A DNA stretch of 64,000 nt. It comes from the human T2T-CHM13v2.0 reference genome, Homo sapiens. Below the pieces are notes generated by a model. The model was not told where the DNA came from. It saw only the letters and a list, made by a program, of their open reading frames with translations, and made no database searches. The stretch is from the NCBI RefSeq assembly GCF_009914755.1, contig NC_060930.1; one strand, written 5' to 3'. Made by a program: the position numbers and the translations under genes. Positions 1,412-32,021 of this stretch are shown piece by piece. How positions within the stretch are numbered: the stretch's first letter is position 1; the number at the start of each line of letters is the position of its first letter.

Positions 1412-1845
1412 CTATTAGCTATTACATTCTATGTTCAAGTTCCCTTATAGTTGGAAGGGTAGTACAAGTTGTACTCAAAGAAAGGTCAATGGACGTGATA
1501 TTCTGGTAGTACCCAGAAGAGAATAATAACGTAATATTTTTCTTAATGGGAATTAGTTCATTGGCAATAGGCTAAAGATAAGGAAAAGGTAAACAATCCT
1601 TACTCTAGCTATACACTATTACCATAGATAAGATTTTGGTGCTGATAACTATATTCAAACATTTTCTCCAACACTTTACAGTGTCAAGATTAGAATCTAA
1701 ATAACCGTAACTAAATAATACTGATGTAATTAATGCAATGATCTTTTAATACCCAGAGTATTATCATTATTTTGTCAAGAAATAAACCAGTGATTCCTTC
1801 TCTAATTCAGCAATACAAATATCCCTGCATAAAAGTTTATATTAC

Positions 1846-2224
1846 CTGGTGGAATTCTGATCTTAAAAGAGAACATAATAACTTTTATTATTTTTTTTGA
1901 GACGCATTCTCGCTCTGTCGCCCAGGCTGTAGTGCAGTGGCATGATCTCTGCTCAGTGCAAGCTCTGCCTCCCAGGTTCATGCCATTCTCCTGCCTCAGC
2001 CTCCCGAGTAGCTTGGACTACAGGCACCTGCCACCATGCCCAGCTAATTTTTTGTATTTTTAGTAGAGACAGAGTTTCACCATGTTAGCCAGGATGGTCT
2101 CGATCTCCTGACCTCGTGATCCGCCTGCTCTGCCTCCCAAAGTGCTGGGATTACAGGCGTGAGCCACCGTGCCAGGCTGGAACATAATTTTTTGAAAAAA
2201 GAAAATAAAAAGTAGAATCTTAAT
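1846..2224 (-). pseudogene. Beta-defensin signal-peptide pseudo-exon 1 disrupted by an Alu
   Basis: Removing the Alu and one TSD copy (GAACATAAT) gives ATT AAG ATT CTA CTT TTT ATT TTC TTT TTT CAA AAA ATT ATG TTC TCT TTT AAG ATC AGA ATT CCA CCA G|gtaata, i.e. (I)[22 protein letters not shown], phase 1. The 17 nt across the donor are identical to DEFB112 exon 1, and a paralogous promoter is adjacent. Confidence 0.8.
1880..2178 (-). mobile_element. Alu (AluY-like) inserted in the defensin pseudo-exon
   Basis: Reverse Alu with AluY-like segments (gcaagctc, gccattctc, ttagccaggatggtctcgatctcctgacctcgtgatcc). TSD GAACATAAT at 1871-1879 and 2180-2188. Confidence 0.93.
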
Positions 2225-2420
2225 AGAAAGGTATTAAAAGACATTTCTTCACATGTAAGGTGTTGAAATGAAGGAACTGAAAAGTTTTGCCTCTCTGGGG
2301 CTTATTAAGAATAAAAAGAGTTCTATGCTTGGTTAAATAGTGTTATCATCAAAGGGCAAGTAGTAAGAAAGATTATTGTACTTTCACAAAAACAGTAAGA
2401 TTTTTCTGTAGAGCTGTCTA
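2225..2420 (-). promoter_or_regulatory. Relic beta-defensin promoter/5' region
   Basis: Plus-strand GCTTATTAAGA...TTCTATGCTTGGTTAAATAGTGTTATCATCAAAG (about 2300-2354) matches the blocks upstream of DEFB110 (16963-17017) and DEFB112 (44899-44952). Confidence 0.7.
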
Positions 2421-3574
2421 TGCAGACATTTATTGCTTGTCTTGATTAGATGGAACCTTATATCTCTGCATCTATGTACAAAAATAACTTAAATATTTCA
2501 GTTAGAGTAACCTAGACAATTATAAGCACATGGTGCATGTCACAACATCAATAATATCTTGTTAAACTAAATAACATCACCCCATCTCTGACCTCCACAG
2601 CACTACTGCTGGAAACAAAAAAGCCATCCTTCCTTAGTGAGGATTTTGGGGGTAAATAATATTGTCCCCGGGGTGCCCAAGAAAGTCCTCATTTTTGCTA
2701 CTACACAATCTCTGCTTTTCCTGTATCTTCATCTTTCCTAGGATTACTGTAACATTTCCCGTTTTCCATATGAACATCAGCTGCACAGCCATGAGAGCTC
2801 TTTCTGAAAATTAAATCACTCCTACAAATATTTCTAACGTTATCCTCTTAGGTAAAACTAACTCAGCTAGATTTCATGATGGATCTTAGAAACATGAGCT
2901 ATTCTGAGTTATGAGTCAGGTTTACTCATCAGCTAACCAAGCTTTGTTACGCAAAACTCTCCATAGTTATGGGATTCTAACTCTTGCCCCAACCAATTTG
3001 AAATTTCCTTCATTAGACACATTCTCTGAGGGTGTAAAATTGAGTTGGCCAGACACCAGCCCTACCCTGCTGAAACAAAGGTACCTATTCCTGAGTTTCC
3101 TTATGAGATTTTCTTTGAAAAAAGAATCACATGGCTAAAAGGGGCTCTATATCTCAGATCTTGTTATTTATCCTTTTGCCGTGCTATGAATAGTGCTTAA
3201 TTACCCTGCAGAGAGAGCATTGTTAAATTGTATCATTTCAAAACCACTGTAATTGGTTAAATGTATGCAAGAACACATCAGACAGGTCAAAATTGGTGGC
3301 TGTCATGTTTGTAAGAACCACATTTTCTGTTAAAGAAGAGTAGATGCCTTAGAGGGATTTGGGTGTGGAAACCAGGATATATGAAAATAACCATAATCCT
3401 CATAGTAAATCTGGCAATAAGGTCACATATACATATTTAGAGAGGGAGCAGAATAACTCAGATAAGTAATATGAATGTCTCAGAGTCAAAGTGGAAATAA
3501 TGAGATTATAAACATAATTAGAGTCTGTTTCCTTGTTTCGATAATGTGTTCATCCATTTGAAATACAAAAATCC

Positions 3575-3857
3575 ATCATTCTCAGAAAACTATCTCAAGG
3601 ACAAAAAAACCAAACACCACATGTCCTCACTCATAGGTGGGAATTGAACAATGAGAACACATGGACACAGGAAGGGAAACATCACACACTGGGGACTGTT
3701 GTGGGGTTGGGGGAGCGGGGAGGGGTAGCATTAGGAGATATACCTAATGCTAAATGACGAGGTAAGGGTGCAGCACACCAACATGGCACATGTATACATA
3801 TGTAACAAACCTGCCCATTGTGCACATGTACCCTAAAACTTAAAGTATAAAAAAAGA
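3575..3857 (+). mobile_element. 5'-truncated young L1PA 3' end
   Basis: L1 ORF2 end and 3'UTR ending in ...taccctaaaacttaaagtataa plus A-tail. A 15-bp TSD GAAATACAAAAATCC lies at 3560-3574 and 3858-3872. Confidence 0.95.
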
Positions 3858-4039
3858 GAAATACAAAAATCCCCAAGGAATAAGTAGAGACTAAATTCAT
3901 TATATGTAAATAGATATATTTAGAATTTAAAAGTGTATATTTTCATTAAATGTTGCAAACATTTTTTTACCTACTCTTGAGTGAAAAACATGCATCTCTG
4001 TTCCAGACTTGATCCTCAATAGTACTTCTTTTCCAGAGT

Positions 4040-4173
4040 TTATACGCAGCACTGACTTCTCCATTTAATGCAGTATCCATAATCATACTCAACATCATCA
4101 CAAAACGTTTTACATATTCCTCTCACTTTTTCGCATCTTTCAAATCTATACTTTGGTTCAAAATTGCTTCTGG
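4040..4173 (-). CDS. DEFB110: Beta-defensin 110 distal alternative terminal exon (isoform b, historically DEFB111)
   Basis: Acceptor ttgcag|CC. Encodes (A)RSNFEPKYRFERCEKVRGICKTFCDDVEYDYGYCIKWRSQCCV* with C-X6-C-X3-C-X9-C-X6-CC spacing. Joined to exon 16784-16838 it gives 55+134=189 nt, 62 aa. Confidence 0.95.
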
Positions 4174-5424
4174 CTGCAATCAAGAAAAATATCTAAAGTT
4201 ATTAGTCTATTATTGATTTGTGGGTTTTCTTGCTAAAGAAAGACAAAAACTGTTCCAGTTATGAGATCATGTGTGTGCAAGTTGGAGACAATGGAACGTC
4301 AAGTTGTTTTGTAGCAGAATTTATGAATCATTTCAGAAAATGACTGAGCTACTAACATTATACTTGTACAAAATGTCTATGTCCTTATCTTGCAGCTCAC
4401 ATCCATACTAAATGTCAGCTGGCTCAGTCTACAGTAACAACGAGAAAGTGACACACAATTTGGTACTTAATTATATGTATTTTTGTCAGACATTTGTTGT
4501 GATACTTTGTTATTGCAGCCAAAATATCAGCCCTTCTATAATAGTTATAATTTATTTTGATTCTTTATCTCTTTCCTATTTGAACATAGTGGTCACACAA
4601 ATAGTAATCATAGAGAAACTAGAGAAGACTTCTAATGTACTAACTTCACTGATAGGGCAACTGATCGAGAAAACTCAAAACTAAAGTACTTTAGATCTAC
4701 ATAGAGAAACATAATTTTGTCATACACTGCCTATCTAGCAAAAAGTGGAGCCTCACATTAGTATTCTATTATAGTTTCTTGTGAACCATCTAAGACAATG
4801 AAAAGAAAGATGTTCTGAGATTCCAAAATCACAGTTTTATATTCATACATTAAACTATAGTAAAGGGAGGTAAATTATTTTGTTACTTTAAAGTTTTATT
4901 GTTCCTAGTGATACAACTGTACTCTGAAAATGCCTTTAGAGTAGAAAAGAGACTTTGGAGTCAGGCATATTTTTATTTTTCAATTTTATCAATGTACTTA
5001 CCTATCTTTGGTCAGTCATTCTACCTATCTGGATGATATAATATAATCAACATAATTGTCAGAAATATATTTTGAGTATTAAATGTTGTTATGTGTGCAT
5101 ATATGTGTCAGGAAAAAATGAGGCAAAATAATTTTGTTAAAATTTAGAGAATGAATTGAATTGAATTCAGATTTAAATTATGTAATATCTGTTAATAGAA
5201 CCTAATTGTCTGCATAGAATCGAATTGGAATTTAGAAAAATGTTTCATTTCAAATCAAAATGGTAGGCATTTATTTTAGTACCTAGTATTCACCAGGCAT
5301 TAGGTTCCGAAGCAGAGAAAAACTAGAGAAGATCTCTAAAGCACTTACTTATTGCCCTTAATGAAGTTGGTAGAAAATAATTAAACGTAAGATGGAAGAG
5401 ACTGTCAGGTGGATTTTAACATGT

Positions 5425-5535
5425 TAATATATATATATATATAGACATACATAGACATATATATAGACATATATATGACATGTAAATATATATATTTGAC
5501 ATGTAAATTATATATTTTTGATGTATATATATATA
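5425..5535. repeat. (TA)n-rich low-complexity repeat
   Basis: Runs of atatatat interspersed with agacat/gacatgtaaat units. Confidence 0.8.
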
Positions 5536-8500
5536 TTTTTTAGTGAATGGTAAACTAATTTATAATGACAGAATCCCTACCTTTGGTGAATTTTAGTGAA
5601 ATCTGAAGTCATTTCAGAGACATGTTTGATATAATTTAAAGTCAGGAAGACAATGATGCATAATTGCATATACTTTTTGTAACTGTTGCTAGAATAGAAA
5701 CTTTTTAAGCCAATCAACATTCCTGAGCCATTATATTTTGTCAACTCTAAAACCACCAAAGTCTATGGTGGTTTTTAAGATATATTCAAATTAGAAAAAA
5801 GTATACACATAGAAATAATAGTAATATTTAAAATGTACTAATTTTGTTCTGACTTTCTAATTATTTTAAAGAATAAGAATGTTTTGAGTTATGAGGAAAT
5901 CTATAGAACCATATAAAAACAAAAAGCATGCATTGTAAAATTGGTTCTATTGCTTATAATTTATTTGCAAATTATGGCTCACTATAGAATCAAAGGTTTG
6001 CCATGTGTAAATTATGAATGAAAATAACATCCCTTTGTATTGTTATGAAAATTGATACGTATCAATTTATAATACATATAGATAAATATTGATATATATA
6101 TATCAATATATAAAAACAATTTTAAGGTGTTGAATGCTATACAAATGTCATCCATAAGTGCATGAGTATTTATGTGATATGAAACTGGGTGATACATACC
6201 ACATAAAAACAAATTGTTTGGAGGAAAGATGCATAGTATCTCTTTCACTCACTTATATTTCCGCACATTTTGTACATCACTGGAGAAATTGAGCCCATGA
6301 TAACTATTTTTCATAAAAAGAGACATTCAAATGCTAGTTTGGGGCCTTAGTCAGGAGAATATATTCCAGAAGGTTTCTGGGAGTCTCATCAAGAGTGAGG
6401 TACCACAAATAGAGTGGAGATATGCTGTGGACATCAACACAATCCTGCATACACACAGATGGGGACAAATCTGTTCGAAAGCTAGAGCTTAAAAGCGCAG
6501 TGGTCTCCATGACTCAATGTTAGTTTTTCCAAATGGTATGCGGAGTTTTTCACTCTCCCAAGGGAAGTGTCTGGCATATATCTCTCCACCTCCTCACAAA
6601 TAACATCTCTGAGGGTGACTGCTTCACCTACCTCATGATGCTCCTGGAAATGTCATCCATAAGTGCAGAGTTGAAAGTAGAGGGAGGCAGTGTTGAAAGT
6701 AAAAAGAGTTATGTTTTGGAAGATATTTGCTCTTGCTGGATAGAAGTTGAAGTCAAGGCAGAAGCAAGGCCGTGGGTCAGTTGAAAGTTTGAAAAGGTAT
6801 GATCTTTCAAAATCAGATAGAATTAAGTTTCATGACTGGATATTTTATTTGTCATTTTGCTATATAGCACAAATGATTTAGATCACTGGATTTCAGTTTC
6901 CTTATTAAATTGAGGTTTTATTGAAATTTCAAAAGATATAATGAGATAAAATATGCAGGTTGCTCTTATAGTGCTAAAAATTAATAAGCCTTCAAAGTCA
7001 GGTTATTCTCATTTCCTTTGTCTTTATTTGCCTTTTGGATTTCACACCAAAACCTTATAAAGCCTTACCCTAAGTGGAGCACTGTTACTCACTGTTTATG
7101 CCCTGCTATCACATTGTTACTAGTGTTTAATTCCTGCTATGGCTTTTTGCTATAGTTAAACCACAAAATTCTCGTCTTAAAGTTACAGTAGGCCAGGCCC
7201 ACTATATACCTCATTCACTGATTTATTTCTGCACATAGGAAAATGCTTGAAACAAATTACTCAATAAATAAGATAAATAACTGAAAAAAAAGAGCGAGTG
7301 AATGCATATGTTATTACAGATAGGGACCTAATTCATATTATATAATAAAAAACTCTATGTTTTATTACATGTTATTCATCAGTTATTTCCTGTCAACTTA
7401 GCAAGTGACTTAGGCCCTATATTTGCAGTTTCCTTAAGTGAAAAATGCATTTAGTAATACTTCAGAGGGTTGTGTGGCAATCAAATGAGGTAATACATAA
7501 GGAAAAATTGTTTGGCCCATAATTTTATGAAGTAAGTTTTCATTGTCACTGTAAATGAGTTATTTATAGATTTATGGCAGATTAAAATAACCTTTTCTTA
7601 ATTTACATATTTTTCTCTACTTTTACTGTTAAATGAAGAGAATGCTCTTTTTGTGATTCATACAACACACATTTAGTTAGCAAATATGTTGCACTTGGTC
7701 CTGTGATAGGTGGGGACAAAGATAAATAAAATATTTAAGCTCTTCACCTTCAAAAGACAACTATTATTTGTTGGGAGATGATGACATAGATGAGAAAAAA
7801 AATGCATCACTTTTAAAGGCAATTCTGAGATATAAGCAAAATGTCCTTGCATCACAAAATAAAGAGTTGTAAACTCTTCCTGGAATAGTCTATTTTTACT
7901 ATTACTATTTTAACTGCTACTACCACTGCCACTATTAATAGCTATGTTTTATTAAGTGTTCACTAGGTTTCAGATTCTTTTCTAAGCCAGTTATATTCAT
8001 TTTTGGATTTATTACTCCAATAACTCTTCCCATTTCATACATAAAGATAGTTGAATTCAACTCTTCCTAAGGTTTCAGAGGGAGTAGGAGAGCAAGTAGC
8101 AAACAAAGCTAGGTTTGTTGGACTCAAAAGCAATATATATGCTTCATTGCTTCACTGAGGAGATGACAGGTGGCTGGATCTTTAAAAGATAAAAGCATAT
8201 TTTCCTGAAATTGTGGAGAAGGTCTTACAAGCAAAAAGATGTATCCTAAACATAGATACTATGTTTTGAAGAATGTGTGATCTATGCAGAATGGTATGAC
8301 CTTTTAGCACAATAGAAATTATATGGATGTGAACTTTAGAAAATCAAACTGTGCACAGGTGGCAAAAGGCCCTACCAAGCTAAGGAGTTGAATATTATCA
8401 TGAATGGAGTGGTAAAACTGATGATATTTTAAGCATCTTTTCAATTTTTTTTCTCTTTTAAGGGAGGAAATAGAGAAATTTTTGTAGCAGGAAATCTATG

Positions 8501-9559
8501 TCAAAGTTTATTAAAACAGTCTAAATAAGAAATGATGAATAAGATAATTAAGTTAATGAAACTTGAAAATAGAGAGGAGAAAGTGAACCTAGAAGATATT
8601 TCTGAATGAGACATAGCCCAATAGATAAGTTTTGGATTTGCAGGGAAAGGAACCTGGGACATAGAGAAGCAATGACCAGAAGTGTTTTAGCTTCTAAGAC
8701 TGCGTGACTGATTACGAAATGACAATGTTTTGGCCTTTAGGATGTATGTTTGATATTGAAACAGAATAAAAGACATGGAACAGATTTTAGCCCTTGCGAG
8801 TAATATGATTTCGTTCTGGACAAATTATGATTAAGGAATTTGGAGGCTATCCAGTAGGTTCGGTAAGTAGTAATAAATACTGTTTTGTGGTTTAAGACGG
8901 AGGTTGAGAAAAAGACTTGATAGGAGAAGTCATTGGCATTAACAAGATAATATAGAGAAAGCACATCAAAATAAGAGGAAAAGGGATTCAGAGACAACAC
9001 ATTGGAGGCCATTGACATTTAGAAGACTATCAAAATAGATAATTCAATTAATAATTGTAAAATAGCAATCGATTCTAGCATGTGTTCAGAAGTCCAGCAA
9101 GATAAATAATTAAAATAAACCTTTGAGTTTGCTTTAGGAAAACATATATAACATGAGCAAGAAGAGTTTCAGTTAATTGGTGTGAGTGAATTTATGGTGG
9201 GAAGAGTGTAAAAGAGTTAATGAAGTGGAGACTATGGATCTAAGATTCTTTTCAAGAAATTCGATGAAGAAGAGAATAAGGCAGATTAGAAAGTGGCTTG
9301 AAGAAAAATTAAGAACAAAATAAGGGAGGATTTTTGTAAGATGAAAGAGACTTGAGAAAATTTGTGTTTACTAATTAGAACCATATAAGGTTGGTAAAAT
9401 TTTTAAGAATTTTGACTTACAAAATGGCAAAGTCATATGTGTTCAAACATATAAGAAGAAATGAAATATTCAACAAATGACGGGAAAAAGATGCTGGAAA
9501 TAGGACAGTTGTGAAGAATACCTACAGCCTACTCAACTTACTCCTTGAAAACACCTTTA

Positions 9560-10735
9560 CAAATTCTCAGCTCTCCTCGCAATTTCAAAACATCCTTCCT
9601 GTCTTCACTCTCAGCTAATGATCTTGCTCCCTTCAATTCAATGATCCAATTGAAGATTCCTGAGACTCTCCACAGACTTTCAGCACCAAATTAACCTGCC
9701 AATCAGCAACTGCATCTATGTATTCTACCCCTCCTGCTTATGAATGAAGAAAGCATCCCCATGCTCTAATGAAGGGCTAGTCCCTCAATCTCTGCATTAG
9801 ATGTCATCCTGTCTTGCCAACTCAAAAGATTACTGTCTCCACTCTCATTTTCTGTCTCTTCTCTTAACCACTTGCTAAATCTATTTGATATGACAAACTC
9901 TACATGTCCAAAATTGGATCAATCGTCCAACCAAAATTTGTTACACCTAATATCCTTCCCATTTTAGTCAATGGCACAGCTCAATCTTTCCAATTGCTCA
10001 GACAAGAAATCTTGGAGTCATTATTGACCCCTCTGTCTGCCATAGCCAAAATTTAATCCCTCATGAAATCTAGCTAGCTCTACATTTAACAGATCCAGAA
10101 TTCTACATCCATTCCTCATTGTTTGTATTATTATGGACTTAGCTTCTATAATTTACCACCTATATTATTTACTACTTATATTATTTTAATAACTTCGAGA
10201 GACCTTTACAATATTCAAATTATGTCTCTCCCCTGGCTAAAACCCTTTGAATTGCTCTCAGAATAAAAGTCAAGATCTTTTCTAGCTCCTAAAAATCCCT
10301 GGGTAATCAATTTGTCAAGATATTTTCTCTCCAATTTCCTCTCCCAGGACTCACCTCCTCAGTTACTCTTTTCCAGCAATTCTTTCCTCCCAGGTGTTCC
10401 CCACACATTCCAGGTATGCTCTTATGAACACTTTTTTCAGCCTTTACAATAGGGCTCTATGACAAATCATGTTTAAAATTACTATAGCCCAGGATTGTGG
10501 GCTACTACACTCTACTTTGTTTCCTTTTCTCTAACACTTATTGCCTTGTAATATAATAGATAATTTGCTTATTTCTATTATTTACTGTTTATATTTGTAT
10601 CCACTCACTATACTATGAGCTCCATAAAACCAGACAACATTGTTAGTTTTGTTTTTTTATGTGTCCCAGTTATATTGTACTCTGACACATAGTAGCTGTT
10701 CAATAGATATTTATTGAATTGGTAAATAAATGAGG
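9560..10735 (+). mobile_element. L2 LINE 3' portion (ancient)
   Basis: Pyrimidine-rich L2-type motifs (aaatcttggagtcattattgacccctct; gaataaaagtcaagatc) ending in the L2 tail aatagatatttattgaattggtaaataaatga. Confidence 0.65.
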
Positions 10736-12293
10736 GAGAATATATTGAATGTAGTTTAACCTGTTTATTATCCATATTACAAATTGACATTGATCTTTTT
10801 GGAAGAATATTCCATGCTTTATTCATTTGTGAACTCTATCAAATTGAATATTACTTAAAAATCAGTTTGTAGTCAATCAATATCAGTTCCTTAAGCCAGG
10901 AGCTATAATTTTTCAATCTCCAAATCCAAAACCCATGACATTAAGCCTGGGAAGAAGTAATCCACTTATGAAAAGTTGCCTGAATAAGTACATTGCTAAT
11001 TGGAATTAGATTTTGTTCTTGCCCAAGGATATTGAGGTAAAATAAATACTGATATAGGTTGGGTTTGAATACATGATATCAGGTAGGAGTCTAATTTCTT
11101 TCTTCCTAGTTCACGTGAGAATTTGACGGTGATAAATCTAATTTCAATATAATGCTTTTAATTGATTCATATGGGTATTGAACTACCAAATAACAACAAA
11201 AATTTCCATCACTTAGTGGCATCTATTTTTATCAGAGTCACTGCTCAAGACTCACAAGAAACTAAATATGAACGAAAATACATAGTGTCATGAAAATTTA
11301 TATTGTGGGCCATAGGAGGGAAAAATATAAAACTTAAGTTTTTTAGAACGAATTAGTTTAACATTATCTAGTTCTTTTGTAAGTTCATACAATAAAAATT
11401 ACAATGTATCAGCAAGAAAATCACCAGAAATATTTCCATTTTTAAGCATTTTTTTGCCTTCCTTTTGTTAATAAATTACAAACTTAGACAAATGTAAATT
11501 CTGGGGGCAGAGTAATTAGTAACACCTTTATCTTTTTAAGGAAGCAGGCTGAAGAACTTCATCAAAAGGGTTTCTAGAGTTTTCAGTCTTTTTTTCACGC
11601 AGAAAACACTTAAAAGATTTCCTCAGGAAAAAAAAAATATTAATTTTGAGGTTGATGCACGTAGGTTCACATTCTCCTTCAATTTTCTTAAATTTGTCCC
11701 TTGAGCTGAAGGCAGAGGCTGGTGGCTTAAATGTATTGAACACAAGTAAAGGCCACCTTAGAAATTTAGATGGTTTTCGTGCTCTCTGTCAAGCACTGAA
11801 AGATACAGGGTACACCAGGAGTTTTAGCACAGCCTAGATTTTGTGCAGAGACGCCTCACATGTTTTTTAGAAAATCTCTCATCTTCTTGGTGGGTCCTAA
11901 CAAACTCAACTCTTATTTTCCCCATATTAATAGTATATTAGGCCTCTCAATTCTGATTTAGATGTCTTGATGGAGAGAGGGCTCAGTCTCTTCTTAGGTA
12001 AAATAAATAAAAATCAAACTTTCATAACTTTCATTTTAAACATTTATTTTTACTAATCTTTTTCTTGACGTAGCTAATATATTCATTATCCAAAAGTTAG
12101 GCCAATTTTTCTTTCTGGAGCCAGCAATATATCACATCTAGCCCATATGTAATATATAAAAAATTTAAATAGATAACTATTTCTCATAAAACACAGAAAA
12201 TGTAATTGGCCACCTGAAAATCTCACTGATTTTTTTATTGTTTCCATTTTCATTTTTAAATTTTTGTGAGAATGGGTGCTTGACTTTATAAAT

Positions 12294-12514
12294 CAGTAGT
12301 TCTCAGCCAAGTGTAAATTTGCCCCCTCCCGCAAAGAGGATATTTGGCAATATAGGTAGACATTTTTGATTATCACAATTGGGAGAAAGTGTGCTATTCG
12401 CATCTAGTGGGTAGGAGTTAAGGATGCTGAAAAACATATAACGAGCAGAATAGCTCCCACAACAAAGATTACCTGGACCAAAATATCAATAGTGTCAAGG
12501 TTGAGAAACCCTGT
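12294..12514 (+). mobile_element. MER20-like hAT DNA transposon
   Basis: Termini cagtagttctcagcc ... aaggttgagaaaccctg. Internal catttttgattatcacaattgggag and gcatctagtgggtagga resemble the MER20 consensus. Confidence 0.75.
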
Positions 12515-13765
12515 TATAAATAACTATTGTAAAGATACTTTTGAAGATATTTACATTGCAAGAAAACACACTGAACAATCAAAGACTATGTAAATTTTAT
12601 CTGAGTGGAGAAAAAAAAATTTCCCCATTCATGGCTTGTTGTAGATAATGCTTAGTATAAGCATACTTAAATCTCATATCTGCATTTGAAGAATAGAATG
12701 GATCCACAGAGAGGCCATAATAAAAATATCAAGAGAGTAGGAAGCCCCTGGAATTTTTTGATTTACCATCTCCTTTTGAGTCTAAGTCCGACCTATATGT
12801 ACTGTTTAATACATTTTATTTTTCTTTAGTTAATTTCCCAAAATATTGGTTAATTTTATTTTGAGGGGTATGAAGAGAGGATTCTATTTTATTATGATGT
12901 TGTGGTATTGACAATGTTTCTTAAGAATTTTGAATTAATATGGATTGTTAAATTGTATTCCTAAACTCATAAAATAATATAATTAGCTCTTCTAAATGGA
13001 AAACAAATGGTACAGATGCATCACTGACATGTTCTAGTGAGGAATACTGTGGCTCCTCAGAGGAAGCAGTAGAGGAACTGAGGCAGAGTGAAATTGAAAA
13101 GTGAAGGTTATTGCTGCTTCCTTTTGTCATGGATCTCCTCAGACATAGTCATCTCTCAGGACTGAATAGCTGCATTAAACTATTAGTCATAATTTTTGAC
13201 TTCTTTGGTCTAAATTTTCAGTTATTTTCTCCTCTTCTTTCTGAAATTATTCTCCTTTCTTTTTACTACCTCTCATTTCTTGATACACATTTATCTTTAC
13301 AAAATAATAAATATGAGTAGAAATTGGAGCTGGTTGTGATTCTTCTCTGGTCTTCCATTCTTATACTCATGATCCTTTCACTTCAGCTCTGTCTCTCTCA
13401 CAATAAAGATCTGCCCTCTCAATGTCCAGTCTCCCAAGCCCAGTGGATTTATATATTTACGTGGGGGTAATCTGTGGAACAGTATCTAATAAAATAACAG
13501 CGCATTTCCACTGGAAGCTTGTATTTTAGAAATATGCTTACCCAATTCTTTGACCTAGGGTTTCCCACAACCTTACTTATGGCAACTAACACAAGGCACA
13601 TAAAAGTTGTGGAACTTGTGGAACATGAAGCACTGAAAACTTGAGGAACTTGCATAAAATAAGTCCTGCTACTTCTGGTACCAACAAATCAGGAGAAAAG
13701 TGTAATGGAAAGGCACCAGACATGAGCGTGACATATGATCACTTCTGAATGGTTCAACATTAATT

Positions 13766-13771
13766 TTTATT
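13766..13771 (-). terminator. AATAAA polyadenylation signal for DEFB110 isoform a
   Basis: First minus-strand AATAAA, about 110 nt downstream of the stop at 13880. Confidence 0.65.
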
Positions 13772-13879
13772 TAGTTCTTGTGTATTATAGAGACACACAC
13801 GCCTTGAAGGATGTGCTGGGAAAACTTAATAACGCTGGTCTCTCTTCTTGGAGCTTGTGACTCTTTTCTTCTGTCATCG

Positions 13880-14028
13880 TTACTGCTGCAAGCAGCAATG
13901 AGTTCCAGGTCTTATGCAGTAAGCAATCCTAATTTCATTTTCATGACACTGATTTTTACATTGACCATTACCTATTCTGCACTCTCTCCTCAAGTCCAAG
14001 CTACCATACTCAGGATATTTCTTTTTGG
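13880..14028 (-). CDS. DEFB110: Beta-defensin 110 proximal terminal exon (isoform a)
   Basis: Acceptor cccttcttacag|CC. Encodes (A)[48 protein letters not shown] with the six-Cys beta-defensin motif. With exon 1 it gives 55+149=204 nt, 67 aa. Confidence 0.97.
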
Positions 14029-14749
14029 CTGTAAGAAGGGAAGAATGACTAAAATTAGCCATCTAGCTATGACACATCCATGTTTTAAAAGGAGAAAGTC
14101 CATGAAGCAAAAGATTATAGAGTGAAAATGTCCACCTACCTATGGAGGAAAGTTTAAGTGAATTTACTGTCCCTTGGTACAAGCTACATTCTAGAAATAA
14201 AAAGGGTCTTGGACTTAAGTTAGGTGTTTCCACTTTCTGTCTTACAAGAAACTGGGCAGTGACCCAAGGATGGTTCCCTAAATCAATGGAAAAAAAGTGA
14301 CCATAATTTATCTTTTGGTCAGACTCTCTCTCTGCAATCATCTAATTGCATTTGAGCTGCCTGTTCTCTGCTCTCACTAACATTATTTAGACTGAATGTT
14401 GTGCTTTATGAATTCTTCTTCAAGTGATTTTCACTGTAGCTTGATTTTGCTTCTCTAAAATGTCAAGAGCTAGGCAACGCTAGTGAATTTGTCTAAATTC
14501 CTGCAACTCCCCTGAATATTTGGGGTTTATTTCCCAAAGAAATCATCTAACTCAGACATGTGTCTAATAACAACATTGATAAAGAAAAAAAAAGTGGAGC
14601 CATTGTTAACCATTACATGATTTCTGAAATTACCAGTGATACCTTTTTTTTTCTTTCACAAAAAAGTTTCTAAAATAATAACTTACAAACAATTTCTGTC
14701 AATTACTGTGTGTACTATTAAACCTTTTGACTAGGAATCAATAAACTAT

Positions 14750-14940
14750 TGTCAGGGAGCCAAATCCACCCTGCCACCTATTTTTGGAAGTAATTTTAGT
14801 GGCACGCAGACACACCCATTTGCTAACACATTGTCTATAACTGCTTTTGCATTAAAATAATGCAGTTGAGATCATAGGGTTCATAAAACCTACAATATTG
14901 GTTGTCTCACTTATTTCTAGAAAAAGTGTGTTAACTCCTA
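14750..14940 (+). mobile_element. MER58-like hAT DNA transposon fragment
   Basis: gagccaaatccaccctgccacctattttt ... acacacccatttgctaacacattgtctataactgctttt resembles MER58A. Confidence 0.6.
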
Positions 14941-16074
14941 CTCTGGCTTTATATTTTCTTATCAATCATGAAAGAATGGGTGAGGGATTTGTAGCTGGGG
15001 TCACAAGAAGACATGTCCAGGAGAGCAAAACTGCAACTAAAATTTGCACATTATAAGAAACACAAAATTTGACACAATACAAAAATAACTTTGTAATAGT
15101 CAAAGCTGTAAGAAAAGATATGTTTTTTTTTTAGCTTAAAGATGGACTCTCACTAGAAGTTTCTTATTTAGAATTGAATATATTTAGGGGGTTTGAGGAC
15201 ATTGGTTTGATTGGTTATGTGATCTATTCCAAGTCAATTTTTTTAAGTTTATATTTTAAATTGTACCAAGTCAAAATTTTTTTATTTTATATTTTAAATT
15301 GTACCCTGGCCGATTCGTTTTCAGAAGTCATTTGTTTTGTAGCCTTTTTTTTTTGTATACACATCAAATTCTTGACCAAAGGACAGATTTAATATTTTCA
15401 CATATGAAAACAAATAAATTATGCCACTGTTTCCTGCTATTAATTATTGCTTGGTCTTCTCAAAGGCCAGGCCTTTTGGCCTAGGCAGTCTGTCTGCAGT
15501 TCCAACAGCTGACACCTGATGGTGAGTAGTAATACCTGTTAGCTAATACATAGACTCAGAGCTACATTATCTATGTCATTGGTATAATGGCTATAAAACC
15601 AAGTCCTACTATTAATATTGGCTTTCTTCTCAATGTAACCAAAGCAATTCAGAGTATGAAGCAACTTAAAGAAACAAAAGCATAGAAGAGCATCTAGTTA
15701 ATCTGCACAATTTAAATATTCACTTCTAAAGATCATTACTTATTCTACATTTTCTGAGGAGTTATTATTATCAAACCCATATGTGATTACCCGTGACAGA
15801 CACCTGAATTATACTCACTTTTGGCAAAAGTTCTGTCATGTTTGGCACTGTTGTCCATGAATGCACCTTGGACTGACCCCACCCCTTCTCTTATTCATTC
15901 TTTGTCTTATTTCACCTTTCTAAAACATTATTGTCTTCTTTCTCCTCATTCTGACCTCTACATGTGTTCTCCAGTTTGTGTCCTTGGATTGCTAATCTCC
16001 TTTGCAAGCATTCATCTCCTCATTCAAATAGTATCAATTAAATATACTCCCTGTCAATTGGATGCCAAGCTCAA

Positions 16075-16293
16075 GGGCATGGTGTCTCACTCTAAGCAAT
16101 ATTGATCTTTTGAATAGGACAATTCTTTGCTCTAAGGGGCTGTTCCATGCATTGTAGGTTATTTAGCAGCATCCTGGGTTCTATCTACAACTGGTACTGT
16201 GCCAGTAGTACAAGTTGTGATGAGCTAAAAGGTCTCTAGACGTTGCCTGATGTTCCCTTGAGCACAAATTCACTCCTCTCTGAGAACCACTGG
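16075..16293 (-). mobile_element. MER20-like DNA transposon (reverse orientation)
   Basis: ggacaattctttg...gcattgtaggttatttagcagcatcctgg...tgagaaccactgg is a reverse-complement homolog of the element at 12294. Confidence 0.7.
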
Positions 16294-16783
16294 TCTAGTG
16301 ATACTTCGATATTTCAATAATTATTATTTCTGCCTTCAAATACATTGTTCAAGTCCAATCTGTCTGAAGTCTCTGATCATTACTTTCAACAAAGTAAAAT
16401 CTCTCTCCATTTCTGTCTCACATCACTTTTTGTTATGATATTATTTTAGATTCACAGAAGAGTTGCAAAGTTGGTGGAAGCCAGCTTCCACTTATGTTAT
16501 ATATTGCATAAACTTGGTAATGTTAATTAAGATTAACGAATTAATGTTGATGTAATAGTATTTACTAAGCTATTCAGATTTTGCCAGTTTTCATACTTGT
16601 TATTTTTGTCTGTTTTTCACTATTGTCTTTATTATCTGTTCTGGAGTCCAATCTAAAATACCACATTACATTTTTGTGAAATGATGTTTTAATCCCTATG
16701 TTATTATCATATTTTTTATCAAGAAACAACTTATGTCTTCTCAAATTTGTTAGTATAAATCCCCACAAATATTTGCATATTAC

Positions 16784-16838
16784 CTGGTAAAATTGTGACC
16801 CAAAAGTGCAGAATAAAGAAAAAAAGTTGAATCTTCAT
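16784..16838 (-). CDS. DEFB110: Beta-defensin 110 exon 1 (signal peptide MKIQLFFFILHFWVTILP)
   Basis: ATG at 16838-16836, 18 hydrophobic codons plus 1 nt, donor CCAG|gtaata (phase 1). Confidence 0.96.
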
Positions 16839-17060
16839 GGTAGAGAGTTTCTTAAAAAAAGGGGGCAACAGACCTCCTTTTTCAAGTCAGTTGTTTTGAA
16901 ATAAGGAAACAGAGATCCCTTTTATTTGTGGATTCTCCTGGGAAGTACTTTTAACCACTGAGGCTTATCAAGAGCAAGAACATTTGTATGCTTGGTTGAA
17001 TAGTGCCACCCTCAAAGAACATGAACTCAAAAAGTATTATTAAATTTTTCTCATAAAAGT
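16839..17060 (-). promoter_or_regulatory. DEFB110 5'UTR and proximal promoter
   Basis: Directly upstream of exon 1. Contains blocks conserved with three other paralogous copies in the window (TAAGGAAACA; GCTTAT.AAGAG; TATGCTTGGTTGAATAGTGCCA...CAAAG). Confidence 0.7.
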
Positions 17061-17393
17061 AAAACCTGCTGTGTAACCTTAACTAGACTTTCATGAAAAC
17101 AACACAGTTTTTAAGATATTTTATTTATAGGGGATATGTGTTTGGATTGCTAAATGTTATAGTAATCATCTCCTCTATTCTATGTTATATGTAATATTAA
17201 GTATTCTAATGCCTTAGTATAAAATTGTTGAATGCCTGAATCATAAGATTTTAGAGAAAAAGTTTCCATTGAGATCAGTTTTGTTTTGCTGATAAAACAA
17301 TGAGAACCAGGGAGATTAAATAACTTTATTTCAATTAATATAATATGCAATTATTTAAATAATCAGTAAATTCTGGATTCACTAAAAATGTGA

Positions 17394-17711
<318 letters not shown>

Positions 17712-17885
17712 AAGTCTTTGTATGATTCATAAATTTTCTATAGTCATCTGATTTCAAAATTTCAGGTTCAATGTTTTAATTCTGTTTATGGAACTGAAAA
17801 TTTCATATCTGATCTAAATTGCATGCTTGCAAAAACTATTATTTTGGATATGTGAGAAAGAGCTGGAAGTTTTGCCCAGTACTCA

Positions 17886-18235
<350 letters not shown>

Positions 18236-18281
18236 AAATCAATTAATCAATTATTTCCTACCACATAGTTAATTTTTAAGA

Positions 18282-18450
18282 CAGTGGTTCCTAAACTTTA
18301 GCTGCATCAGAATCCCTTAGAAAGCTTGCTAAAATCAGATTGCAGTGTCCCACCCCCGGCATTTCTGATTTAGTAGATCTGGAATAGGGACTAAAATTTG
18401 CTTTTCTAACAAGATCATTGAATGCTAATGCTGCTGAAAGGGACCACATA
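18282..18450 (+). mobile_element. MER5A hAT DNA transposon
   Basis: cagtggttcctaaactttagctgcatcagaatc...tttctgatttagtagatctgg...tttgcttttctaacaag. Confidence 0.8.
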
Positions 18451-18989
18451 TTAGTCTAGGAAACCTAACTCATTCATTCTATAATGTCTAGGAAAAATGT
18501 TTCACAGAGTCATAGAATCTGCAGCATACATTAATAAAGAATTAAAAGCTGCTTAGAGTTTCTAATCAAATATACTCACATTACTGGTGAGAAAAGTAAA
18601 ATCAAGATAGATGAACTTATTTACCTAGTAATTGTTATCCTTTGCAACAAATGCTTCATATTATAAAATAAAAATAACAACTTTTGGACTAAATCAATTA
18701 TGGGGAACTTGAGTTATCTATTTCCTTTCTGGGAAAGAAAAGAAAAATTGAGAATGCAGCATTAGTTGATAGGAGGAAGACCACTTCAGTATATCACTAT
18801 GCAACACTTAACTCAACAAATATTATTGAGCACTAAAATTAAGAGTTCAGTTATTGATTTCAAATTGATTTTGAATTGATTTCATCTTGTTGCAGTCAGA
18901 AAACATACAGAAGACTAAGAAAGGATTCCTATGAATAGAAAGTACTCTATTGACAAAGGTTAAAAAGAAAAAAAAAAGATAACTGTATC

Positions 18990-19820
18990 TCTAATACAGA
19001 GCATTTATCCCTTATCAATTGGTTTTGCTATTAGAATGGACAAAGATATCCTATGCAAAAGAAAACTGGAGAGACTAAACTGACATAACAGAAAATAGAC
19101 TTTAAGAAAAAAATTGTTACCAGAGACAAAGAATAACATTGGATAATAGTAAAATGGTCAATTCATCAAGAATATAGAGAAATTACAAATATTTGTGTAC
19201 CTAACATTAAAGCTCTGAAATGCAAGAAGTAATACATGACAGAATTGAAAGGAAAGATAGATAGACAATAAAAATAATACTTGAGGTCAATAATACCCCA
19301 CATTCAATAATGGATGCAAAAACTAGACAGACCAGTATGGAAACAGAAAAACTTTAGCAACCTTGTACGCTAACTAGACCAACAGATACTTGTAGAATAT
19401 TCCATCTATCAAAAGCAAAATACACATTATTTTCAAATGAATATGGAACATTCTCTATGATAGTCATATATTAGGTCACAAAACAAGTGTCAATATATTT
19501 AAAAATTGAAATTATACAAGGTACCTTCTTTGACTACAATGGAATAAATTTAAAATCTGTAACTGAAGAAAAATAAAAAAAATTTACAGATAACTGAAAA
19601 TTAAATAATATACTCCAAAATAATCACTGGTTCAAAAGTAAATCCAAAGATGAATTAGAATATGCTTAGTATGAATAATAACAAAAATACAATGTGCCAA
19701 AACTTATGAGATACAGTGAATGCATATGAAAATGCAAGAAACCTAAATAGCAGAAATCATCTTGAAAAAGGACAGTGTTGGAGGACTCACACTTCCTAAC
19801 TTCAAAACTTACTATCAAGA
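18990..19820 (+). mobile_element. Old L1M ORF2 (endonuclease region) fragment
   Basis: Degenerate L1 ORF2 5' sequence (aaaatagactttaag; ggtcaattcatcaagaa; catatattaggtcacaaaacaagt). Confidence 0.75.
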
Positions 19821-19829
19821 AACTGAGGA

Positions 19830-22800
19830 AGGTTGGAGCAAGATGGTGGAAGAGAAGGCTTCACTTATAGTCCCCTTACCACCCCCAACTGCAAGGGCAC
19901 CAATTTAACAATTATCTAAACAAGAAAACGCACCTTCATAAATAAATCAGGTGAGCACTCACAGCACCTGGTTTTAATTTCATGCTGAAAGAGGCACTGG
20001 AAGAGGGTAGGAGAAACAGTCTTAAATCACAGATACCACCCCCTTTTTTCATCCCTTGACAGTAGCTGAGTGGTGCAGAGAAAGAATCATGTGCTTGAGA
20101 GAGGGAGAGAACAGCAACTGTGAGACACTGCATTGAACTCAGTGCTGCTCTGACATAGCAGAAAGCAAAACTGGGTTGAACCCAGCTGATGCCCACTCAT
20201 GGAAGGAGTATTGAAACCAGCCCTAGCCAGAAGGTAGAATTTGATTCTTGGCAAGCCTTGCCGCTATAGTCTAAAGTGCCCTGGGCTCCGAATAAACTTG
20301 AAAGGCAGTCTAGGCCACAAGGACTGCAACTCCTATGTGAGTCCTAGTGCTGAACCGGGCTCAGAGCCAGTGAATGTGAGGAACATGAGACCTATTGAGA
20401 CACCAGTTGAGGTGGCTAAGAGAATGCTGGCATCACCTCTCCCCTAACCCCAGGCTACATAGCACACAGATCCAATAGATACTTCCTTCCATGTGAGGGT
20501 AGGAGAGAGATGAGTAAGGAGGTCATTGTTTTGCACAGTAGATAGGGAACCAGAGTCACGAGGCCCCCTTTCCGGGCCCTAGCTCCTGAGTGACATTTCT
20601 AGACACACCTTGAGCTGGAAGTGAACCCACTGCCTTGAATGGAAATTACCTGAGGGCCTTGGGAGAGACTCTGAGATATGCTGGCTTCAGGTAAGACTTA
20701 GCACATTCCCAGGAGTGATGGCTATGGAGAGAGACTCCTTCTGCTTAAGAAAAGCAGAGAGAAAGGTAAAGTGTGCTTTGTCTTGCACCTTAGGTACCAG
20801 CTTAGCTGCAGAGGGGTAGAAAACCAAGTAGGCTCTTGGGGTCCCAGATTCTAGGCCTTGGCTCCTGGGTTGCATTTCTGGACAAGCTGTTGGAAAGAGG
20901 GAAGAGCACTGTCCTTAAAGGTGAGTCTCAGGCCTGGTGGCATTTACCACAACCTGACTAAAGAGCCCCTGGACTTTAAAGGAACATCCATGGTAGACTG
21001 TTAGTATTCCCTGTGGGCCTGTGGTAGTAGTGCCTATGGGATGAGGCTCCTCTGACTGTTGAAAGGGGAGGGAAGAATGGGAAGAGCTGTGTATTGGGGT
21101 TTGAGTGTCAGCTAAGCTGCAGTATAATAGAATATCAGGTAGACGTCTAAGGTTTTTGACTCCAGTCCCTGGCACTCAGGTGGTACCTCTGGATACCTCC
21201 CCACATCAGGGCTTTAGGGAACTTGCCACCCTGAAGGGAAGGACACAAGCCTAACTGGCTTCACCATCTGCTGATTGTGGAGACCCAGGACCTTGAGTGA
21301 ACATAAGTGGTAGCCAGCTAGTGGTTACAGAGGGCCTTGGGTAAGACCCAGTGCTATGCTAGCTTCAGGTCTGATCCAGTGAAGTCCCAGTGGTGGTGGC
21401 GGCAGAGGTGTTTGTGTCACCTCATCCCCAGCTACAGTTAGCTCAGAAAAGAGAGATACTCCATTTGTTTGGGAGAAGGTAACAGAAGAGAAGAAGAGTC
21501 TCTACTAGGTAATCCAGAGTATTATTCCAAATCTTTTCTAAGACCATCAAGACATAGTACAATAAAATATAAATAGAAATAACAAAAATTTAAAAGCAGG
21601 AGGATGAAGTTGGGGTGTAGAGTTTTAATTCATTTTATTTTTGCTTGTTTAGTTTTTTTTTATGCAAACAGTGTTGTTACCAGCTTAAAATAATGAGTTA
21701 TAAGGTTGTATTTGCAATCCTCATGGTAACCTCAAATCAAAAACCATATAACAGATGTACAAAAATAAAAATCAATAAATTAAATCATATCACCAGAAAA
21801 AATCACCTCCACTAAAAGGAAGAGAGGAAGAAAGGAAAGACCACAAAACAACCAGAAAACAAGTAGCAAAATAGCAGGAATAAGTACTTACTTGTCTCCA
21901 ATCAAAAGACATAGAGTGGCTGAATTGATTAAAAACAAACAAACAAAAAAAAAACAGGCCGAGCGTGGTGGCTTATGGGCTCATGCCTATAATCCCTGCA
22001 CTTTGGGGATCGCCTGAGGTCAGGAGTTTGAGACCAGCCTGGCCAACATGATGAAACCCCATCTCTACTAAAAATTAAAAAAAATTAGCCAGGTGTGGTG
22101 GCGCGAGCCTGAGATACCAGCTCTTATTCCCAGCTACTCAGGGGGCTAAGGCAGGAGAATCGCTTGAACCCGTTGCAGTGAGCTGAGATCGCGCCACTGC
22201 ACTCCAGCCTGGACAACAAGAGTGAAATTCTGTCTCAAAACAAAAACAAAAACAAACAAACAAAAAAACAAGACCCAATAATCTGTTTTCTACAAGAATC
22301 ACACTTCATCTATAATGACACACATAGACTAAAAATAAATGGATGGGAAAATATATACCATGCCAACGAAAACCAAAAAAGACTGAGAATTGCTATACTT
22401 ACATGAGAAAAAATACATTTCAAGGCCAAAACTTTATAAAGAGACAAAGAAGGTCATTATATAAGGATAAAGGGGTCAATTCAGCAAGAGAACATATTAA
22501 TTGTAAGTATGAACCCAAAACTGGAGACCCCACATATGAAAAAAAATTATTAGAGCTAAAGGGAGAGATAGGCCCCAGTAAAATAATAGTTGTGTACTTT
22601 AACACCACACATTCAGCATTGGACAGATCTCTTGGACAGAAAATCAACAAATAAACATCAGATATAATCTGCACTATAGACAAAATGTATCTAATAGACA
22701 TTTACAGAATATTTCCTCCAATGGAGGCAGAATACACATTCTTTTTGTAAGCACATGGATCATTCTCAAGGATAGACCATATGTTAGGTCACAAAAGAAG

Positions 22801-31883: not shown

Positions 31884-32021
31884 GAGGGTTGCCTCAGCTA
31901 TATCTATAGTTATTATTATTTTTATTCATAACATTATTCATCTATGCATTCATTTTGTTTGATTAGTCTTGAGTCATAAATTTTGTTATTGTCATTAAAT
32001 AACAAATATTTAAACTTTTAG

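What the first reader, a model, noticed from the sequence alone, without database searches (positions are those of the whole stretch)
1846..2420. Hidden beta-defensin gene relic: signal exon split by an Alu, with phase, donor and promoter preserved
Seen: excising the Alu (TSD GAACATAAT) restores an uninterrupted 70-nt exon reading (ATT)[22 protein letters not shown]+G|gtaata. It shares the KILLF start, the IPP end, the phase-1 donor and 17 identical nt (atattacctggtggaat) with DEFB112 exon 1. The ATG position reads ATT, and the conserved promoter block follows about 100 bp upstream. Established: beta-defensins have this two-exon layout. Inference: this is the first exon of an additional, inactivated beta-defensin whose mature-peptide exon should lie left of the window. 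I do not recall an annotation for it. It may be intact in other mammals.
Basis: partly seen in the sequence, partly recalled or inferred. Interest (0 to 1): 0.8.

Follow-up and report, generated by a model that had tools for sequence, protein, structure and literature searches.

The report
Dead orphan beta-defensin first exon
This is a real but dead leftover of a beta-defensin gene's promoter and first exon, an old copy of the DEFB110 front end later split by an Alu, with no second exon to go with it, so it is an ordinary gene-cluster fossil.

Summary
An Alu (1880-2179) with a perfect 9-nt target-site duplication splits a stretch on the minus strand. Once the Alu is removed, that stretch aligns in register with the promoter box, signal exon, phase-1 GT donor and intron start of DEFB110 and DEFB112. 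A profile built only from those two genes hits it at 40.4 and 19.1 bits, against at most 8.6 bits in 21 controls. The 35-nt promoter box occurs just three times in the whole assembly.

- The copy is closest to DEFB110, not DEFB112.
- ATG reads ATT.
- The TATA-like element and about 47 nt of core promoter/UTR are missing.
- Its unique substitutions are evenly spread (13-16%) over promoter, exon and intron, which looks neutral.
- No second-exon relic exists in the 37 kb down to DEFB113, although the same searches recover all six known second exons.

Published cattle and pig gene lists show no gene at this position. It is therefore an orphan, long-dead 5' module of an ancient DEFB110-like duplicate. 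It is unannotated in RefSeq and I found it in no paper. Whether it was ever a full gene needs other mammals' genomes, which were not available here. Interest is low.

The parts
2295..2342 (-). Conserved upstream promoter box shared with DEFB110 and DEFB112
   Evidence: Alignments. 41 of 47 gap-free columns agree with the DEFB110/DEFB112 consensus. Its 35-nt core occurs only 3 times in the assembly, with 0 hits for the backwards-read control.
2225..2294 (-). Degenerate core promoter and 5'UTR equivalent. The TTCAAC initiator-like site is kept near 2264. The TATA-like element is lost, with about 30 nt and 17 nt missing relative to the live genes.
   Evidence: Alignments. The annotated starts of DEFB110 (16897) and DEFB112 (44837) fall on the same TTCAA motif (with the hub table).
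2189..2224 (-). 5' half of the relic signal exon. ATT at 2224-2222 stands where the paralogues have ATG.
2180..2188 (-). Target-site duplication, copy next to the Alu 5' end
1880..2179 (-). Alu element with A-rich tail, in the same orientation as the exon
   Evidence: 72-84% identity to other Alus in the window. 12 of 179 non-CpG-type differences from the local majority, rank 9 of 16 local copies, 9 CpG left.
1846..1879 (-). 3' half of the relic signal exon. It includes the other target-site duplication copy (1871-1879) and ends in phase 1.
   Evidence: The 17-mer across the junction is identical to DEFB112.
1734..1845 (-). GT donor (1845-1844) and intron start, homologous to the start of DEFB110 intron 1
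   Evidence: blastn 1734-1860 against 16677-16798, 70.8% identity, E 6e-8; 69.1% over 149 nt; nhmmer 19.1 bits.

Best explanation
This is a non-functional, orphan 5' module (upstream promoter box, first signal-peptide exon, donor and first ~110 nt of intron). It comes from an ancient duplicate of the DEFB110-type beta-defensin gene and sits 1.8 kb downstream of the last DEFB110 exon.

It cannot make a defensin, for five reasons:
- The start codon is ATT.
- The TATA-like element and part of the core promoter/UTR are deleted.
- The hydrophobic core of the would-be signal peptide is followed by an insertion carrying charged residues.
- A primate Alu inserted by target-primed reverse transcription splits the exon.
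- There is no cysteine-motif exon for its donor to splice to.

Shown: the homology, the lesions, the Alu with its duplication, and the absence of an exon 2 in human.

Inferred:
- The copy split from DEFB110 about as long ago as the placental radiation or earlier. About 32% intron divergence supports this; the neutral rates used are recalled.
- It has drifted neutrally for most or all of that time.
- The Alu was a late hit on an exon that was probably already dead.
- I lean towards a partial, 5'-only duplication that never had its own exon 2, over a whole gene that later lost exon 2. The human sequence alone cannot settle this.
For: - Homology; controls.
- Only 3 copies of the 35-nt box genome-wide, so it is not a dispersed repeat.
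- Closest to DEFB110. On 330 gap-free columns, identity is 68.8% to DEFB110 and 55.2% to DEFB112, with DEFB110-DEFB112 at 58.8%. In the tree, candidate and DEFB110 are sisters with support 79/82, and the branches are 0.40 against 0.15.
- Unique substitutions in the candidate are even across compartments: upstream 7/54, box 6/47, core promoter/UTR 9/70, signal coding 9/55, intron 14/104.
- Lesions: ATT, missing TATA-like region, 17-nt UTR gap, +12/15 nt in the coding part. Hydropathy falls after residue ~10, unlike DEFB110 and DEFB112.
- No exon 2.
- Partial duplications occur in this cluster. A second orphan exon-1 relic lies at 48213-48418. The exon at 4040-4173 is listed in print as a mutually exclusive homologous exon of DEFB110 that shares its signal peptide (PMC4494069, passage).
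Against: - The excess of unique changes over DEFB110 in promoter plus exon (31 against 20) is not significant (binomial p 0.16), so long neutrality is suggested, not proven.
- The open 23-codon frame, the intact GT donor and the kept phase could reflect a period of function. They are also compatible with chance in a T-rich stretch.
- Tree support is weak (no branch reaches 95/80).
- Transcription or enhancer activity was not testable.
- No other mammal was examined.
- GENCODE/Ensembl pseudogene tracks could not be checked.
Confidence: 0.85

Rival explanations
1. One reading: it is exon 1 of an additional, once complete beta-defensin gene. Its exon 2 lies, or lay, to the left, and the gene may be intact in other mammals.
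For: The frame, phase and donor are kept after Alu removal. The whole 5' module including the intron start was copied. The split from DEFB110 is old enough for orthologues to exist across placentals (by inference).
Against: No exon 2 relic exists in the 37 kb down to DEFB113, by four methods that recover all six known second exons. An exon 2 decaying neutrally should be as visible as this exon 1, so an extra deletion is required. The cattle list (PMC11521603, passages) and the pig table (PMC11877871, passage) show no gene between DEFB113 and DEFB110. Divergence is even across compartments.
Confidence: 0.25
2. It is the lost own first exon of the old 'DEFB111', the six-cysteine exon at 4040-4173 now spliced to DEFB110 exon 1. 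Under this view the two are halves of one DEFB110 duplicate.
For: The two lie 1.8 kb apart on the same strand. For both, the nearest paralogue is DEFB110.
Against: The order is wrong: the candidate exon 1 lies 3' of that exon 2 on the coding strand. The shared-signal-exon layout is described in print as conserved alternative splicing (PMC4494069, passage). Cattle DEFB110-1 and DEFB110-2 are alternative transcripts of one region (PMC11521603, passage). Mouse Defb41 carries the alias Defb16 (PMC4127520, passage). The exon-2 tree is unresolved.
Confidence: 0.05
3. The promoter box is still used, as an enhancer or as the start of a non-coding transcript in the male reproductive tract, even though the coding exon is dead.
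For: 41 of 47 box columns still match the consensus of the live genes. The initiator-like motif is kept. Mouse relatives of this cluster are androgen-regulated (PMC4127520, abstract and passages).
Against: Box divergence (6/47) equals intron divergence (14/104), so there is no sign of constraint. The TATA-like element is lost. RefSeq lists no transcript or functional element here (hub table).
Confidence: 0.1
4. The similarity is a chance AT-rich resemblance or part of a dispersed repeat.
For: The region is AT-rich, and the exon is short and T-rich.
Against: The profile scores 40.4 and 19.1 bits, against at most 8.6 bits in 21 controls. The 17-mer gives 3 matches against 0.03 expected. The box occurs only at the three paralogous sites in 3.1 Gb, with 0 control hits. 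The order promoter-exon-donor-intron is collinear.
Confidence: 0.01

Closest known systems
DEFB110 promoter, exon 1 and start of intron 1 (window 16677-17065, minus strand)
   Same: The same module in the same order: upstream box, initiator-like site, signal exon, phase-1 GT donor and about 110 nt of intron. Identity is 68.8% over 330 gap-free columns, and the two are sisters in the tree.
   Different: DEFB110 has ATG, a TATA-like element about 22-32 nt upstream of the annotated start, a 55-nt coding part and two alternative six-cysteine exons. The relic has ATT, no TATA-like element, a 70-nt coding part split by an Alu, and no second exon.
DEFB112 promoter and exon 1 (window 44706-45021, minus strand)
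   Same: It shares the promoter box, the KILLF start, the IPP end and a 17-nt identical stretch across the donor.
   Different: Overall identity is only 55.2%, and there is no shared intron homology beyond about 15 nt. It is not the closest paralogue.
Second orphan exon-1 relic upstream of DEFB112 (window 48213-48418, minus strand)
   Same: It is also a promoter plus exon-1 module without an exon 2 of its own. The same profile found it (E 1.2e-10).
   Different: It is more decayed. It has GTG for ATG and no GT donor, and its box has diverged beyond the 3-mismatch pattern. It keeps a TATAAA and carries no Alu.
DEFB133, labelled a transcribed pseudogene in the hub table
   Same: It is an inactivated member of the same 6p12 cluster.
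   Different: DEFB133 keeps both exons. The fault visible here is in exon 2, where the final cysteine pair reads C-Y followed by a stop. The relic studied here is a fragment with one exon only.

Membership tests
Beta-defensin gene (two exons: signal exon, then six-cysteine exon) | Promoter and exon 1 homologous to those of bona fide beta-defensin genes | tested here: met
   nhmmer E 1.3e-11 and 4.2e-5 with a profile made from DEFB110 and DEFB112 only; controls at most 8.6 bits; blastn.
Beta-defensin gene (two exons: signal exon, then six-cysteine exon) | ATG start codon opening a hydrophobic signal peptide | tested here: not met
   ATT at 2224-2222 aligns with the ATG of both paralogues. The hydrophobic run is followed by an insertion with Q, K and R, and hydropathy drops.
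Beta-defensin gene (two exons: signal exon, then six-cysteine exon) | Phase-1 GT donor at the end of the signal exon | tested here: met
   70 nt after Alu removal, phase 1, followed by GTAATAT exactly as in DEFB110 and DEFB112.
Beta-defensin gene (two exons: signal exon, then six-cysteine exon) | A downstream exon with the six-cysteine motif (Pfam Defensin_beta_2) | tested here: not met
   There are no PF13841 hits between DEFB113 and the window. The pattern, profile and tblastn searches of -35300..1845 found nothing. Positive controls: all six known second exons were found. In tblastn, 4 of 5 non-self peptides found the exon at 4040-4173 at E<=0.002; the DEFB133 peptide did not.
Beta-defensin gene (two exons: signal exon, then six-cysteine exon) | Uninterrupted exon and intact core promoter | tested here: not met
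   There is an Alu inside the exon. The TATA-like element and about 47 nt are missing.
Beta-defensin gene (two exons: signal exon, then six-cysteine exon) | Transcription in the epididymis or testis | not testable with these tools
   No expression data were available.
Unprocessed pseudogene fragment from tandem duplication | Genomic copy retaining promoter and intron sequence, lying in the parent cluster on the same strand, with disabling lesions | tested here: met
   Promoter and intron homology; same strand, 1.8 kb from DEFB110's last exon; lesions as listed.
Alu insertion by target-primed reverse transcription | About 300-nt element similar to other Alus, with an A-rich tail, flanked by a short perfect direct repeat of the target | tested here: met
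   The element is 300 nt. The 9-nt duplication is exact at both ends. The tail is visible. It is 72-84% identical to other window Alus. Subfamily was not assigned, because no reference consensus was available.
Own first exon of the DEFB110 alternative exon (old DEFB111) | It must lie upstream of that exon on the coding strand | tested here: not met
   The relic (2224-1846) lies downstream of the exon at 4173-4040 on the minus strand.

The most novel reading that the evidence does not exclude
The relic marks a seventh beta-defensin gene of the 6p12 cluster. That gene would have been a full DEFB110-like gene between DEFB110 and DEFB113 in the placental ancestor, and it may survive, unannotated, in some mammals. 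Humans would have lost its exon 2 by deletion, and the promoter and start codon then decayed before the Alu arrived. Together with the second orphan relic at 48.2-48.4 kb, the ancestral cluster would then have held more DEFB110/112-type genes than any annotated genome shows.
Probability: 0.2. Interest if true: 0.4.

Novelty: new member of a known kind. Interest (0 to 1): 0.2.

Why it matters
The relic adds a small piece to the birth-and-death history of the epididymis-type beta-defensin cluster on 6p12. Besides whole genes, the cluster has duplicated single modules: two orphan promoter-plus-exon-1 copies and one extra exon 2. The relic also points to a 35-nt promoter box that is unique in the genome to DEFB110, DEFB112 and this copy. 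That box is a handy starting point for asking what drives their tissue-specific expression. It does not change any gene count or function, and a specialist would not be surprised by it.

Tried and rejected
I dropped it and used the pattern search that the tool does allow.
- A DNA search of the assembly with 2189-2420 found only itself. The first look is word-based, so it cannot see paralogues at about 70% identity.
- Soft-masking to describe repeats in the 37-kb gap: the files carry no lower case.
- Pfam scan of the 18 longest of 68 open frames (>=70 aa) in -40000..-1: 0 of 18 reached a curated cut-off. The two weak matches (DUF4294, NPR2) are below cut-off and taken as chance.
- Weak exon-2 profile hits near -10.6 to -11.5 kb (E 21-38) are not collinear with the profile and show no cysteine pattern.
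- The best tblastn hit (E 0.062) is the head of an Alu.
- The bacterial promoter/terminator scan does not apply to a human locus, and I ignored it.
- Schutte et al. 2002 could not be read: not held by DOI or by PMC id. Patil et al. 2005 was seen only as a reference entry. Either paper may contain cluster maps that bear on this locus.
- I did not assign the Alu subfamily. My impression that it is of the younger S/Y type, and an age of a few tens of millions of years, rest on recall plus the local ranking.

Full report
WHAT IS THERE

Read on the minus strand, the stretch 2400 to 1730 contains, in order:
- a block that matches the upstream promoter region of DEFB110 and DEFB112 (2342-2295);
- a short, gapped equivalent of their core promoter and 5'UTR;
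- the first 36 nt of a signal-exon-like sequence (2224-2189);
- a 300-nt Alu in the same orientation (2179-1880);
- the last 34 nt of the exon (1879-1846);
- a GT donor (1845-1844);
- about 110 nt that match the start of DEFB110 intron 1.

The Alu is flanked by an exact 9-nt direct repeat at 2180-2188 and 1871-1879. It has an A-rich tail.

IS IT MORE THAN CHANCE?

Yes.
- A blastn of 1-3600 against the rest of the window gave three collinear, same-strand matches apart from the Alus. These are 2295-2398 with the DEFB110 promoter (73.6%, E 5e-9), 1734-1860 with the end of DEFB110 exon 1 and its intron start (70.8%, E 6e-8), and 2277-2354 with the DEFB112 promoter (75.6%, E 7e-7).
- To avoid circularity I built an nhmmer profile from DEFB110 and DEFB112 alone. 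I ran it over 134 kb: the window plus 70 kb to its left, fetched.
- At E<=10 the profile gave 9 hits:
  - the two training genes;
  - the first exons of DEFB133 (E 1e-13), DEFB113 (E 9e-4) and DEFB114 (E 0.025);
  - both halves of the candidate (E 1.3e-11, 40.4 bits; E 4.2e-5, 19.1 bits);
  - an unexpected further copy at 48418-48213 (E 1.2e-10);
  - one probable chance hit at -69176 (E 0.22).
- The same profile scored at most 3.4 bits on the reversed sequence and at most 8.6 bits in 20 block-shuffled copies.
- The 17-mer across the donor is exact in the candidate and in DEFB112, and has two mismatches in DEFB110. That is 3 matches against 0.03 expected.
- A 35-place degenerate pattern of the promoter box, allowing up to 3 mismatches, occurs in the whole 3.1-Gb assembly only at these three sites. 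The backwards-read control gave none. It is therefore not a dispersed repeat.

THE EXON AFTER ALU REMOVAL

Excising the Alu and one repeat copy by coordinates gives 70 nt from the ATT to the donor. This stretch is open in frame and in phase 1, as are DEFB110 (55 nt) and DEFB112 (58 nt).

The lesions are:
- ATT in place of ATG.
- The coding part is 12-15 nt longer than in the live genes. The added stretch and what follows carry Q, K and R, so the hydropathy profile falls after about ten residues. In DEFB110 and DEFB112 it stays high.
- About 30 nt between the box and the TATA-like element are missing. The aligned position of that element reads nothing like the A/T-rich motif found about 22-32 nt upstream of the annotated starts of DEFB110 and DEFB112. 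A further 17 nt of 5'UTR are also missing.

'Phase and donor preserved' is correct. 'Promoter preserved' is only half true.

WHOSE COPY IS IT, AND HOW OLD?

- On 330 gap-free columns the candidate is 68.8% identical to DEFB110 and 55.2% to DEFB112. DEFB110 and DEFB112 are 58.8% identical to each other.
- Intron homology exists only with DEFB110.
- In a maximum-likelihood tree of the seven exon-1 units of the cluster, the candidate is sister to DEFB110. Support is only 79/82, and no branch in the tree is strong. The candidate's branch is 0.40 against 0.15 for DEFB110.
- Changes unique to the candidate are spread evenly: 7/54 upstream, 6/47 in the box, 9/70 in core promoter/UTR, 9/55 in the coding part and 14/104 in the intron. 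This is what neutral drift would give.
- The excess over DEFB110 in promoter plus exon (31 against 20) is not significant (p 0.16).
- Candidate-DEFB110 divergence in the intron is about 32%, taken from the counts. Using recalled neutral rates for the human lineage, I infer a split about as old as the placental radiation or older. This is an inference, not a measurement.
- Alus are primate-specific (established knowledge), so the insertion is much younger. Among 16 near-full-length Alus in the 134 kb, this one ranks 9th by non-CpG-type divergence from the local majority (12/179) and keeps 9 CpGs. It is therefore of middling age. I did not assign a subfamily.

IS THERE A SECOND EXON?

- A six-frame search of the whole assembly with Pfam Defensin_beta_2 gave four chr6 hits at E<=0.001: DEFB133, DEFB113, DEFB110 and DEFB112. 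None lies between DEFB113 and the window.
- In the 134 kb, a strict six-cysteine pattern found five exons: DEFB112, DEFB110, the DEFB110 alternative exon at 4046-4135, DEFB113 and DEFB114.
- A protein profile of the six second exons, run on six-frame translations with stops read as X, recovered all six at E<=1.2e-17. The next hit was at E 3.2.
- A DNA profile of the same exons with flanks recovered all six at E<=4.6e-35. The next hit was at E 2.9. Within -35300..1845 the best was E 21, and those weak hits are out of order with the profile.
- blastn of each second exon with 400-nt flanks found only short chance matches and one repeat shared with the flank of the 4040-4173 exon.
- A permissive tblastn gave at best E 0.062, and that hit is the head of an Alu. 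In its positive control, 4 of 5 non-self peptides found the exon at 4040-4173 at E<=0.002. The DEFB133 peptide did not.
- The 18 longest of 68 open frames in the gap matched no Pfam family above cut-off.

In the human genome the donor at 1846 therefore has no defensin exon to join before DEFB113's own first exon, 37 kb away.

RELATION TO THE NEIGHBOURING ORPHAN SECOND EXON

The exon at 4040-4173 is a complete six-cysteine exon with a phase-1 acceptor, and RefSeq splices it to DEFB110 exon 1 (hub table). From memory, it was once named DEFB111. The name appears in a review table citing Schutte 2002 (PMC9825273, passage) and in a boar study (PMC2738690, passages).

It is tempting to pair it with the candidate, since DEFB110 is the nearest relative of both. 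Three things argue against that:
- The candidate lies 3' of it on the coding strand, so it cannot serve as its first exon.
- Abascal et al. list DEFB110 among genes with mutually exclusive homologous 3' exons that share one signal peptide (PMC4494069, table passage).
- Cattle DEFB110-1 and DEFB110-2 are called alternative transcripts from the same region (PMC11521603, passages), and mouse Defb41 carries the alias Defb16 (PMC4127520, passage).

That exon is thus an exon duplicate that did not need a first exon of its own.

OTHER MAMMALS

No non-human mammalian DNA was within reach of the tools.
- From print, cattle list DEFB114, DEFB113, DEFB110-1/-2 and DEFB112 on chromosome 23, with nothing between DEFB113 and DEFB110.
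- The pig table lists DEFB114, DEFB113, DEFB110 and DEFB112 on chromosome 7 (PMC11877871, table passage).
- These are annotation lists, not searches for relics. They are weak evidence against an intact orthologue and no evidence about a relic.

READING

The simplest account is a dead, orphan 5' module of an old DEFB110-type duplicate.

Modules have been copied singly in this cluster: the extra second exon at 4040-4173, and a second orphan promoter-plus-exon-1 relic at 48213-48418. The latter has GTG for ATG, no GT donor and a TATAAA kept.

A partial duplication needs one event. A whole gene that then lost exon 2 needs two. An exon 2 left to decay should still be as visible as this exon 1. I therefore lean to the partial duplication, but the human sequence cannot decide it. 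The Alu is best seen as a late hit on a sequence that was probably already inert.

IS IT KNOWN?

- RefSeq (hub table) has no feature here.
- Full-text searches turned up nothing that, in the listings and passages I read, mentions a relic exon between DEFB110 and DEFB113:
  - 'DEFB111': 2 papers;
  - DEFB110 + DEFB112 + DEFB113 + pseudogene: 0 papers;
  - beta-defensin, DEFB110, DEFB114, DEFB133 and synteny, at least 4 of the 5 terms: 5 papers;
  - DEFB110 + exon: 9 papers;
  - beta-defensin + 6p12 + pseudogene: 1 paper.
- The two papers most likely to hold cluster maps were not readable: Schutte 2002 and Patil 2005 (reference entry only).
- GENCODE tracks could not be consulted.

VERDICT

The feature is real, but it is an ordinary by-product of tandem gene-family evolution, and the predicted second exon is not there. 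I class it as a new member of a known kind, of low interest.

Noticed in passing
window 48213-48418 (minus strand), 3.4 kb upstream of DEFB112 exon 1: A second, more decayed orphan promoter-plus-exon-1 relic, found by the DEFB110+DEFB112 profile (E 1.2e-10). It keeps a TATAAA at 48340-48335. It has GTG (48242-48240) where the genes have ATG, and no GT donor. No exon 2 of its own lies before DEFB112 exon 1.
   Followed up: partly
window 2299-2333, 16962-16996 and 44898-44932 (minus strand): A 35-nt promoter box shared by DEFB110, DEFB112 and the relic occurs nowhere else in the 3.1-Gb assembly at up to 3 mismatches. The live genes carry a TGTTCT motif inside it that the relic has lost. What binds there is unknown.
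   Followed up: partly
window 4040-4173 (minus strand): The DEFB110 alternative last exon is a complete six-cysteine exon with a phase-1 acceptor and its own stop. Its nearest relative is DEFB110 exon 2, at only about 50-61% DNA identity. It is listed in print as a mutually exclusive homologous exon (PMC4494069).
   Followed up: partly
L014, about window -59009..-58881 (DEFB133 exon 2, minus strand): In DEFB133 the final cysteine pair of the motif reads C-Y and is followed two codons later by a stop. This fits its label as a transcribed pseudogene.
   Followed up: no
window 1734-1845 against 16677-16783 (minus strand): The first ~110 nt of the intron are still about 69% alike between the relic and DEFB110, whereas DEFB112 shares only about 15 nt beyond the donor. 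Either the split from DEFB110 is younger than that from DEFB112, or the intron start of DEFB110 is constrained.
   Followed up: no
window -35300..1845 (L009-L012 and the window start): The 37 kb between the relic and DEFB113 holds no recognisable coding relic among the 18 longest of 68 open frames. The matching interval between DEFB113 and DEFB110 is about 9 kb in the cattle list and 19 kb in the pig table, so the human interval is much longer.
   Followed up: partly
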